Sequence record: PZ445454.1
From: a phage
Length of the DNA: 64,000 nt
Strand: one strand, 5' to 3'
Part shown: positions 47,171 to 48,832 of the stretch, piece by piece
How the letters are laid out: each line of letters starts with the position of its first letter
Numbering within the stretch: the first letter of the stretch is position 1
The notes under the pieces: generated by a model
Told to the model about the DNA's origin: nothing
Seen by the model: only the letters and a program-made list of their open reading frames with translations
The model's database searches: none
Translations under genes and position numbers: made by a program

Positions 47171-48832
47171 ACGCCGCAGCGGGGCTAAATAGCCCCAGAT
47201 ACCTTTACAGCCCCTTTATATATGGATTCAATAGAATCTATCTCATAGGGGCTTTTTTTACGTCTTATCAAATCCCTTATACAAACCTTTCCCTTTCCTT
47301 TCCAGAATCTTATCAGACCTTAAAAAGCAATAACTCTATAGCTTACTCTATAGCCCCTTATCAAATCAACTTAAATATAAGCCCATAACCCGAAAGGGAA
47401 GGGCAACCCCTTAAACGCTCTATAACGCCCTATAACAGCCTTATCAACCTAACTTAATGGATTGCATTACCTCACCCTTAAAAGCCCTTTATAAAGCTTC
47501 CTAGAGCCTTAAAAGAATCTTATAAGGGTATAAGCTTTATTATCTCGTTAGCTATCTTGTGAACTACTAAACAAGCCCCTTGATAGTAACTGAAAAGTAT
47601 GTTATAGGGGCTATAAAGTAGCTTAAAAGTTGCTTAAAAGTTACGTAAATGCTAGCCCCCTTAACATTTTCTTAACAATTTTTTAACAAACCCTACATAG
47701 TTATGCTTTTAAGACACTTGTTAGCAACTTGTTAGCCCCTTGTTAAATCTCTGTTAAAACCATGTAAAAGCTTTGTAAGAGTCTTTGACATAGCCTTTAA
47801 AGCCCCTGTAAAGCCCTATAAAGAGCTTTCTACATAGTTGGGGTGTAATTACTAGGAAGAGGTTTAAAAGAGCTTACAAAGAGCTATAGAGAGCTTTTAA
47901 GAGGGCTATTTAAAGAATCACTAAGAAAGAAAGGGAACGATAAGAAAGAGATAGTGACCATGTTAATAGCTTGTTAAAAAGATTAAACACTTGTTAGAAA
48001 CTTGTTAATTATCTTAACAAAATAACTCTTTAAAATTAACTTGTTAGCTCTTGTTAGCAATCTGTTAAGATTCTGTAAAGTCTATGTAGCACTTGTTAGA
48101 GATTTGTTACACCCTTGTTAGTCCTGTTAAGAAACTGTTAAGACCTTTGAAGAGTTGTTAAGAAGATGTGAGAGCTGTTAAGAGATTGTTAATGATATTT
48201 TAAAATTCTGCAAAGGGGATGTTAAGGGGCTGTTAAGGGCTACCAAGCAGATATACATCTTCTACAGATATTTTTGAGTTCCTTCAAAGACCCTAAAAAA
48301 TGACTTGATAGTCCTATTTTATAAAAATTTTAAAATTCTGAATAATTACCTAGACAGTCTTTTAAAAATACAGGCATAAACAGGCTTATAAGATACCTTG
48401 TTAATACCGTGTTAGACCTTGTGAGATAAGGTCTGTAAAGATATTCCTGTTAAGTTTGTTAAAACAGTCTATATAGAGGCTTAGTAATACCTAGTGAACA
48501 CCTATAGAGGGTAACATAGCTAACATAGAGATTAAGAGGTGTATAGGAGCTTCTAAGAGGCTATAGAGAGATGGTTAAGGTGATTGTATAGGTTGTTAAG
48601 AAGGCTTGTTAGAGGGCTTGTTAGAAGGGTTATACAGAGGGGCTATTAAGACCACTAGATAGTTACTAAGATACTATATAGTACTATATAACTATATAGA
48701 GAGTAAGATTAAGAAGGTTGTTAAGAAGGATAGATATTTTGTTCACATATGATGGTGACCCAGAGGTTGGGACAACCGATAAAATTTTATAAAAATTAAA
48801 AAGCCCCCGATTAAGGAGGCTCTTAAGATATT
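47171..48832. repeat. 1.66 kb ORF-free region dense in short iterated motifs (CCCTTAT/CTATAA type, then about 15-20 copies of YTGTTARN at 10-12 bp spacing, then CTATATA repeats)
   Basis: No ORF of 60 aa or more on either strand; motifs read directly; lies between convergent gene blocks. Confidence 0.75.

What the first reader, a model, noticed from the sequence alone, without database searches (positions are those of the whole stretch)
47171..48832. 1.66 kb ORF-free, iteron-dense region between convergent gene blocks
In an otherwise tightly packed genome this stretch has no ORF of 60 aa or more on either strand and is built from short iterated motifs, including about 15-20 copies of YTGTTARN spaced at roughly one helical turn. 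That pattern is typical of protein-binding arrays at replication origins, packaging sites or genome termini.
Basis: seen in the sequence. Interest (0 to 1): 0.7.

Follow-up and report, generated by a model that had tools for sequence, protein, structure and literature searches.

The report
Felix O1-type phage genome-end repeat region
This gene-free stretch is where the two physical ends of a Felix O1-like phage chromosome meet; it holds the known ~590-bp terminal repeat, which is packed with a conserved short motif (TGTTA, every 11 bp) whose binding protein is unknown.

Summary
The window is a Felixounavirus (Felix O1-like myovirus). Window 47171-48832 has no ORF and no known RNA, and is bracketed by two facing terminators. 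Its centre, 47655-48244 (590 bp), aligns base-for-base with the direct terminal repeat (DTR) mapped in close relatives: Bal31 plus run-off sequencing for UAB_Phi87, PhageTerm for Ro111lw and Pr103Blw, and GenBank DTR features. So the gap is the concatemer junction: right-end unique DNA, then the DTR, then left-end unique DNA.

The TGTTA motif occurs 21 times on one strand in the DTR (1.6 expected), and 11 gaps are exactly 11 bp. Motif cores are better conserved than the spacers across three genera. The same architecture recurs in the barely alignable Erwinia phage M7, and T7 has an analogous CCTAAAG array at its repeat.

The most likely role is a binding platform for end-formation and packaging proteins; this is inferred, not shown. 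A replication origin is not supported: no DnaA or IHF sites, no initiator gene, and the region sits at the GC-skew maximum. The terminus is already known; the motif array appears undescribed. Interest is modest.

The parts
47171..47654 (.). Right-end unique non-coding DNA, which lies just inside the right-hand terminal repeat in virion DNA. It has its own ~11-bp units (CTTAAAAG, CTTATCAA, CTATAAC) and lacks the TGTTA motif.
   Evidence: Lag-11 self-match is 0.37. Mean conservation is 0.78 across 11 relatives.
47209..47259 (+). Intrinsic terminator closing the rightward gene block: a long stem-loop followed by T7. A smaller hairpin lies upstream at 47181-47196.
   Evidence: -20.5 kcal/mol, z -5.78, 0 of 200 shuffles fold as well. 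The Barry and Mordin records annotate terminators at this position.
47641..47656 (.). Left cut-site context TTACGTAAATGCTA|GC, containing the palindrome TTACGTAA and the window's only GCTAGC. It is invariant across three genera. The TTACGTAA unit is present in 1-3 copies in relatives.
   Evidence: Conservation is 0.96.
47655..48244 (+). Direct terminal repeat (DTR), 590 bp. One collapsed copy is present in this window.
   Evidence: It aligns end-to-end with the Ro111lw 613-bp repeat found at both record ends, the Pr103Blw annotated 581-bp terminal repeat, the UAB_69 'DTR' feature and the starts of the H12, pEP20 and ECP2307 records. Supporting papers: PMC4837284, PMC6454146, PMC8303462.
47661..47689 (-). 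Three inverted motif units (TTAACA) at 11-bp spacing at the extreme left of the DTR. They mirror the two TGTTAAGGG units at the extreme right.
   Evidence: inverted repeats I16 and I3. Present in all relatives and in M7.
47719..48236 (+). Unidirectional TGTTA(R) array of 21 units (consensus rraNCTTGTTARra), in clusters at 47719-47756, 47961-48007, 48042-48067, 48094-48140, 48156-48191 and 48220-48236.
   Evidence: Core conservation is 0.95 against 0.83 for other columns, and 0 of 589 mask shifts do as well.
48002..48020 (.). Palindromic double site TTGTTAAttatcTTAACAA, one of the two best-conserved 25-bp blocks in the gap.
   Evidence: Conservation is 0.99. It holds the only interior - strand unit.
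48245..48832 (.). Left-end unique non-coding DNA. It has a conserved AGATATACA (48249-48257) just outside the DTR, 8 more + strand TGTTA units, and the two least stable 40-bp duplex stretches of the 64 kb (48308-48347 and 48659-48698).
   Evidence: Mean conservation is 0.85, higher than the flanking ORF. It is 95-99% identical in 97 records.
48799..48824 (-). Intrinsic terminator closing the leftward gene block.
   Evidence: -14.5 kcal/mol, z -3.18. wV8 and Mordin annotate a terminator at this position.

Best explanation
The gap is the genome-end (concatemer-junction) region of a Felix O1-like phage. In virion DNA the 590 bp at 47655-48244 are present at both ends as an exact direct terminal repeat. 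47171-47654 is the unique DNA just inside the right end, and 48245-48832 is the unique DNA just inside the left end. The window shows them joined because assembly collapses the two repeat copies. This part is shown by base-exact homology to mapped relatives. Genes at both physical ends are transcribed outward and stop at terminators, so about 1.5 kb is transcriptionally insulated cis-acting DNA. Inferred: the TGTTA(R) units, spaced 11 bp apart on one face of the helix, are binding sites for a still unidentified phage protein that coats the repeat and the left-end unique DNA. The invariant sequences at the two repeat boundaries (…TTACGTAAATGCTA|GCCCCCTTAACA… and …TGTTAAGGGCTACC|AAGCAGATATACA…), each flanked by inward-facing motif units, are where the terminase complex cuts. 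The one-directional polarity of the array would set the direction of packaging, and the repeat would be duplicated during cutting as proposed for T7. My sub-confidences are: terminus and DTR about 0.95; selected protein-binding array about 0.8; packaging or end-formation role about 0.45.
For: Identity as the DTR rests on several independent lines. Ro111lw has a 613-bp repeat that is 100% identical at both record ends and maps to 47655-48244. Pr103Blw has a 581-bp repeat annotated at both ends. UAB_69 carries a 'DTR' feature. HP1, a Mooglevirus, has an annotated terminal repeat_region of 570 bp at its right record end. Several records start exactly at 47655. UAB_Phi87 ends were mapped by Bal31 and run-off sequencing, giving 608 bp, with no cos ends. 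PhageTerm papers support this. For selection on the array: 21 copies against 1.6 expected and 11-bp spacing; cores 0.95 against 0.83 conserved; copy number held at 19-22 (+) and 3-5 (-) across three genera; and the whole gap is conserved as well as or better than the neighbouring ORF. Erwinia phage M7, of whose DTR region only about 84 bp is alignable, has TGTTAAG 7 times in its 444-bp DTR, 5 times in its left-end unique DNA and none in 4.1 kb of coding DNA, with inverted units at the left edge and the same AGATATACA after the repeat. The motif is not dispersed elsewhere in the genome, and there is no downstream gene to regulate. T7 has the same design: CCTAAAG 3 times inside and 8 times beside its 160-bp repeat, all in one orientation. 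No small terminase subunit has been identified in this phage group.
Against: No read-end data exist for this particular phage, so the ends are inferred by homology. No binding protein is identified, and all ten flanking ORFs are of unknown function. Most units lie in the interior of the repeat, far from either cut site, which a pure cleavage signal would not need. The role of the analogous T7 repeats is itself unsettled (my own knowledge). The AT-rich, easily melted elements next to the array fit an origin equally well. The reported boundaries differ by 2 nt between depositors.
Confidence: 0.6

Rival explanations
1. The array plus the adjacent AT-rich DNA is a replication origin, with iterons bound by an initiator and melting at 48308-48347 or 48659-48698. 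It happens to lie at the genome ends.
For: The region has direct repeats on one helical face next to the two least stable 40-bp duplex stretches in 64 kb. It is strongly conserved. In T7, phage promoters near both ends (phiOL, phiOR) are annotated, and from my own knowledge they can act as secondary origins.
Against: There are no DnaA boxes and no IHF sites. No initiator-like gene is adjacent. The repeat units are 11 bp with a 5-8 bp core, shorter than classical 17-22 bp iterons. The region sits at the cumulative GC-skew maximum, while the minimum is at the divergent 10.15-10.38 kb gap next to a 909-aa ORF; this is confounded by gene orientation. Another gap (about 4020-4096) has a more iteron-like perfect 10-bp array.
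Confidence: 0.15
2. The array acts after injection rather than in packaging. A phage or host protein coats both identical ends to protect them from exonucleases such as RecBCD, or to bring the two repeats together for recombination into circles or concatemers.
For: Because it is in the terminal repeat, the array is present at both ends of virion DNA. It covers the whole interior of the repeat rather than just the cut sites. Predicted curvature is moderately raised (indicative only).
Against: The motif continues into the left-end unique DNA but is absent from the right-end unique DNA, in both Felixounavirus and M7. This asymmetry is not expected for simple protection of both ends. There is no candidate protein.
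Confidence: 0.15
3. The repeats have no function and are slippage products accumulating in a transcriptionally silent, unconstrained gap.
For: Relatives differ by whole-unit insertions and deletions, which shows that slippage does occur. DTR length varies from 558 to 618 bp.
Against: Cores are conserved more than spacers, with 0 of 589 mask shifts doing as well. The gap is conserved at least as well as the neighbouring ORF. The same motif, polarity and distribution appear in a genus whose DTR is otherwise almost unalignable.
Confidence: 0.05
4. The region encodes a non-coding RNA, or is a promoter or operator array controlling transcription.
For: A few sigma-70-like matches fall on motif units such as TTAACA.
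Against: Promoter-like sites are not enriched: 11 found against 9.5 ± 3.3 expected. No Rfam family reaches threshold. Both flanking gene blocks point inward and terminate, so there is nothing downstream to control. The motif is absent from other intergenic regions.
Confidence: 0.05

Closest known systems
Direct terminal repeats of Felix O1-like phages (UAB_Phi87 608 bp, Ro111lw 613 bp, Pr103Blw 581 bp, UAB_69)
   Same: This is homologous sequence at 86-94% identity, with identical boundary sequences and the same flanking genes. It is the same feature.
   Different: The length is 590 bp here because of whole-unit insertions and deletions. None of the papers I could read describes the internal TGTTA array or the boundary symmetry.
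Phage T7/T3 concatemer junction (160-bp terminal repeat with CCTAAAG short-repeat arrays)
   Same: It has a short exact DTR, with a unidirectional short motif repeated inside and immediately beside the repeat, and a non-coding, cis-acting packaging region. The packaging recognition sequences lie within 5% of the genome ends (PMC3276506).
   Different: There is no sequence similarity. The T7 period is 13 bp against 11 bp here. Most T7 copies lie outside the repeat, while here most lie inside. The T7 ends carry promoters and T7 uses its own RNA polymerase in packaging initiation, whereas here both sides are closed by terminators.
Iteron-type replication origins (lambda ori; plasmids P1, R6K, pSC101)
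   Same: Both have direct repeats phased with the helix next to easily melted AT-rich DNA.
   Different: The units here are much shorter. There is no initiator gene nearby, there are no DnaA or IHF sites, and the GC-skew position is wrong.
pac sites built from short repeats (P1 hexamer clusters, SPP1 pacL/pacR boxes); comparison from my own knowledge
   Same: Both are clusters of short repeated boxes flanking a terminase cleavage site and bound by the recognition subunit.
   Different: Those phages package by headful and have permuted genomes. Relatives of this phage have fixed ends.
Winged-helix response-regulator boxes (PhoB, PhoP, OmpR): tandem direct repeats with an 11-bp period; comparison from my own knowledge
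   Same: The geometry is the same: 6-7 bp cores repeated head-to-tail every 11 bp, suggesting head-to-tail oligomer binding on one face of the DNA.
   Different: The sequence is not a PhoP box, and none was found. This is only a clue to the kind of protein to look for.

Membership tests
Short exact direct terminal repeat (T7-type, non-permuted) genome end | The same sequence is present at both physical ends of virion DNA. | tested here: met
   Met by homology. Ro111lw, Pr103Blw and M7 records carry repeats that are 100% identical at both ends, and the first two map exactly to 47655-48244. No reads are available to test this directly for this phage.
Short exact direct terminal repeat (T7-type, non-permuted) genome end | The ends are fixed and non-permuted, and there are no cohesive ends. 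| not testable with these tools
   Shown for relatives only: Bal31 and run-off sequencing plus a heat test for UAB_Phi87, and PhageTerm for Ro111lw, Pr103Blw and H12.
Short exact direct terminal repeat (T7-type, non-permuted) genome end | The large terminase groups with DTR-type terminases. | not tested
   I did not locate a terminase gene in the window. PMC4837284 reports a Felix O1-like DTR terminase cluster.
T7-like short-repeat arrays at the concatemer junction | A unidirectional short motif is repeated in and next to the terminal repeat. | tested here: met
   Window: 21 + against 4 - in the DTR, and 8 + in the left-end unique DNA. T7: CCTAAAG 3 + 8 copies, 0 on the other strand.
T7-like short-repeat arrays at the concatemer junction | Sequence homology to the T7/T3 repeats. 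| tested here: not met
   The motifs differ (TGTTAAG against CCTAAAG) and so do the periods (11 against 13 bp). This is an analogue, not a homologue.
Iteron-type replication origin | An array of direct repeats next to an AT-rich unwinding element. | tested here: met
   This feature is not specific to origins.
Iteron-type replication origin | A cognate initiator gene in or beside the origin, and/or host DnaA or IHF sites. | tested here: not met
   The flanking ORFs have no Pfam match and belong only to PHROGs of unknown function. There are 0 DnaA boxes and 0 IHF sites.
Iteron-type replication origin | Replication initiates here. | not testable with these tools
   This needs marker-frequency or 2D-gel data. 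Cumulative GC skew peaks here rather than reaching a minimum, which is weak evidence against and is confounded by transcription direction.
Headful pac site | A circularly permuted, terminally redundant genome. | tested here: not met
   Relatives have fixed ends at identical bases.
Known structured RNA | A match to an Rfam covariance model at gathering score. | tested here: not met
   The best match is mir-708 at 26.9 bits against a threshold of 71. The whole-window scan finds only tRNAs.

The most novel reading that the evidence does not exclude
The TGTTA(R) array, conserved across at least four Ounavirinae genera, is the DNA-recognition platform for a packaging system with no recognisable small terminase. 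An unidentified phage protein, or the large terminase itself, would polymerise head-to-tail on 11-bp repeats across the whole terminal repeat, and the inverted units at the two edges would position the two cuts. That would be a distinct solution to how DTR phages measure and duplicate their repeat.
Probability: 0.3. Interest if true: 0.55.

Novelty: already known. Interest (0 to 1): 0.33.

Why it matters
Knowing that 47655-48244 is the terminal repeat fixes the true ends and orientation of this genome. The true length is the assembly length plus about 590 bp, and most public records of this genus are opened elsewhere and leave the gap unannotated. The conserved, polar motif array and the invariant cut-site sequences give a concrete handle on an open question for this widely used therapeutic and diagnostic phage group: how DNA is recognised and the repeat duplicated when no small terminase subunit can be identified. 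The region is also a defined cis element that engineered Felix O1-type phages or transducing vectors would have to keep.

Tried and rejected
1. A large palindrome, with the right-end unique DNA carrying the same motif on the opposite strand. A PWM scan finds no such sites there.
2. A conserved hairpin straddling the left boundary (47606-47640 with 47706-47740), by analogy with proposed T7 hairpin intermediates. The fold has z -1.99, 6 of 200 shuffles fold as well, and relatives differ by unit insertions and deletions rather than compensatory changes.
3. Long-range helical phasing. G+C spectral power at 10-11.5 bp is within the background range (DTR 4.6 against a 95th percentile of 5.2), so order is local (neighbouring units), not global.
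4. Non-coding RNA. There are no Rfam hits.
5. A promoter array. Promoter-like sites are not enriched.
6. Host-factor sites. DnaA, IHF, PhoP, CRP and Chi sites are all absent.
7. A DNA-binding candidate among the neighbouring genes. All ten have unknown function.
8. The ΦEa21-4 genome paper is not held in the library, and its GenBank record has no feature in this region.
9. The first literature search was too loose and returned nothing relevant. One search failed on a term that was too short.
10. The curvature model uses parameters recalled from memory and shows only a moderate signal, so I do not rely on it.

Full report
**What the window is.** The 1,662-bp query matches 256 phage records, almost all Felixounavirus. 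It is 93.6% identical to vB_EcoM_Shy and 91.4% to Felix O1 at 12307-13927. The window also carries a 25-tRNA cluster typical of the group.

**Check of the observation.**
- No ORF of 30 aa or more lies inside 47193-48832 on either strand.
- The only larger ORF-free gap in the window is the tRNA cluster.
- Rightward ORFs stop at 47170 and leftward ORFs stop at 48833.
- Each block ends in a good intrinsic terminator: 47209-47259 (-20.5 kcal/mol, z -5.8) and 48799-48824 on the - strand (z -3.2). About 1.5 kb is therefore transcriptionally insulated.
- YTGTTAR occurs 28 times in the gap (25 on +, 3 on -). The remaining 62.3 kb holds 66 copies, about the chance level.
- The TGTTA core occurs 21 times on the + strand of 47655-48244, against 1.6 expected (maximum 7 in 2000 dinucleotide shuffles). 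Eleven neighbour gaps are exactly 11 bp, against 0.5 expected for random placement (0 of 20,000 trials).
- Self-match at lag 11 is 0.47 in that segment against 0.27 in coding DNA. It is also raised in both flanks (0.37, and 0.35-0.36).
- Tandem Repeats Finder reports 18 short arrays, all of period 10-12.
- The unit consensus is rraNCTTGTTARra.

**What it is.** Many related records that were opened at mapped ends begin inside this gap.
- Ro111lw carries a 613-bp repeat that is 100% identical at both record ends and aligns to window 47655-48244. The H12 record starts at the same base.
- Pr103Blw annotates 1-581 and 87841-88421 as a "short direct terminal repeat"; the two copies are identical and map to the same interval.
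- UAB_69 has a feature called "DTR" at this position, offset by 2 nt at each side.
- HP1, a Mooglevirus, annotates its terminal 570 bp.
- The ECP2307 and pEP20 records begin at this point.
- Published evidence: the UAB_Phi87 ends were mapped by Bal31 digestion and run-off sequencing, giving a 608-bp DTR, and a heat test excluded cohesive ends (PMC4837284). PhageTerm gave 613 bp for Ro111lw (PMC6454146) and 581 bp for Pr103Blw (PMC8303462).
- The Felix O1 genome paper only inferred "short terminal repeats" and does not discuss this region (PMC3185647).

The boundary sequences in the window are identical to those of the mapped relatives: …aaatgcta|GCCCCCTTAACA… and …GTTAAGGGCTACC|aagcagatat…. 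The gap is therefore a collapsed concatemer junction with three parts:
- right-end unique DNA (47171-47654);
- the DTR (47655-48244);
- left-end unique DNA (48245-48832).

Genes at both physical ends are transcribed outward, toward the ends.

**Anatomy.**
- The TGTTA motif is absent from the right-end unique segment (1 + and 1 - by chance), dense in the DTR (21 + and 4 -), and continues into the left-end unique segment (8 + and 2 -).
- Three of the four - strand units sit at the extreme left edge of the DTR at 11-bp spacing. They mirror two TGTTAAGGG units at the extreme right edge, so the two virion 5' ends read GCCCCCTTAACA… and GGTAGCCCTTAACA….
- The fourth - strand unit forms a palindromic double site, TTGTTAAttatcTTAACAA, at 48002-48020.
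- The right-end unique segment has its own ~11-bp units (CTTAAAAG, CTTATCAA).
- The left-end unique segment contains the two least stable 40-bp duplex stretches of the whole window, at 48308 and 48659.

**Evidence of function.** I aligned the DTRs of 15 genomes from Felixounavirus, Mooglevirus and Suspvirus.
- TGTTA core columns are 95% conserved against 83% for other columns. None of 589 circular shifts of the mask does as well.
- Copy number stays at 19-22 (+) and 3-5 (-).
- Across the full gap, mean conservation is 0.78, 0.84 and 0.85 for the three parts against 0.76 for the upstream ORF.
- The peaks are at both cut sites (0.96 and 0.97), the palindromic double site (0.99) and the meltable TATAGTACTATATAACTATATAG block (0.99).
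- Relatives differ mainly by whole-unit insertions and deletions, including 1-3 copies of a TTACGTAA-containing unit just outside the left boundary.

Erwinia phage M7 (Kolesnikvirus) aligns over only about 84 bp but has the same design:
- a 444-bp DTR;
- TTAACA units on its left side;
- TGTTAAG 7 times in the DTR and 5 times in the left-end unique DNA;
- none in 4.1 kb of coding DNA or in the right-end unique DNA, which has its own TTCTAAR array of 11 copies;
- the same AGATATACA immediately after the repeat.

Retention of motif, polarity and distribution while the surrounding sequence has diverged argues for a conserved binding protein.

**Mechanism.**
- Shown: this is the terminal repeat and its flanks.
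- Inferred: the array is a protein-binding platform.

The best-supported role is end formation and packaging, for these reasons:
- The array brackets and fills the interval between the two cut sites.
- Inward-facing units sit 6-8 nt from each 5' end.
- The array is polar, as a packaging direction signal must be.
- There is no gene downstream to regulate.
- The group has no identifiable small terminase.

T7, checked directly, has the same design. It has a 160-bp DTR, CCTAAAG 3 times inside and 8 times beside it, all in one orientation, with self-match 0.59 at lag 13. Its packaging specificity maps to the genome ends (PMC3276506).

**Rivals.**
- Origin. The iteron-plus-AT-rich look fits. Against it, there are no DnaA or IHF sites and no initiator-like neighbour. 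The region lies at the cumulative GC-skew maximum, and the minimum is at the divergent 10.15-10.38 kb gap.
- Post-injection end protection or end pairing. This is possible, but the motif's asymmetry between the two unique flanks argues against a simple version.
- Junk from replication slippage. The conservation data contradict this.
- RNA or promoter roles. There is no Rfam match and no promoter excess.

**Novelty.** The terminus itself is already published and annotated for this genus. In the papers I could search, nobody describes the internal TGTTA array, its polarity, the mirrored edges or its conservation into Kolesnikvirus. That is a modest addition of a known kind, analogous to the T7 arrays.

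**Verdict.** Interest is low to moderate.

Noticed in passing
window 1-64000: GATC is completely absent: 0 sites against 184 ± 12 expected from shuffles and 229 by a Markov estimate. Many 6-bp palindromes are also missing (CTGCAG 0 against 22, ATGCAT 0 against 13.5, CAGCTG 0 against 12.3). This is strong avoidance of Dam and restriction sites.
   Followed up: partly
window 3892-4481: This is a second ORF-free gap of 590 bp. It holds the strongest tandem repeat in the window (ACCATACCTA x7.7 at 4020-4096) next to a very AT-rich stretch (about 3890-3940). It is hypervariable among relatives: only 13 of 230 records cover at least 80% of it. In several relatives' records the match overlaps an annotated DNA ligase gene. 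It could be another cis element or an origin candidate.
   Followed up: partly
window 10153-10379: This is a divergent intergenic region with two TTGACA boxes and CTTAAAAG-like units. It is among the least stable duplex DNA in the window and lies at the cumulative GC-skew minimum, next to a 909-aa leftward ORF. It is a candidate early-promoter or origin region.
   Followed up: partly
window 43585-46924: The region holds repeated ~93-nt intergenic cassettes (a TTGACA-type box, a GC-rich hairpin and a ribosome-binding site) at 43585, 44449, 45671 and 46234. There is also a 91-nt pair at 43948 and 44743. These correspond to the 39- and 57-bp direct repeats listed in the Felix O1 paper.
   Followed up: partly
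window 47641-47656: The left cut site falls inside the window's only GCTAGC palindrome (GCTA|GC). Depositors' boundaries differ by 2 nt on each side, so the cut could be staggered. A perfect TTACGTAA palindrome lies 6 nt upstream, and its unit varies from 1 to 3 copies among relatives.
   Followed up: partly
L011 1990-2556 (Erwinia phage M7, right-end unique DNA): M7 has a different unidirectional unit here: TTCTAAR, 11 copies at 10-12 bp spacing, and none in its DTR. Each sub-region of the junction seems to have its own repeat family.
   Followed up: no
window 58577-63556: This is a cluster of 25 tRNA genes, all on the + strand. It includes two tRNA-Met, two Lys, three Leu, two Gln and two Arg(tct).
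   Followed up: no
GenBank GU169904.1 (Staphylococcus phage SA1), 135406-135754: A 147-kb Staphylococcus phage record contains Felix O1-like sequence matching this region at about 84% identity. It looks like a chimeric or contaminated assembly. Separately, two Campylobacter-labelled records matched the 3892-4481 gap.
   Followed up: no
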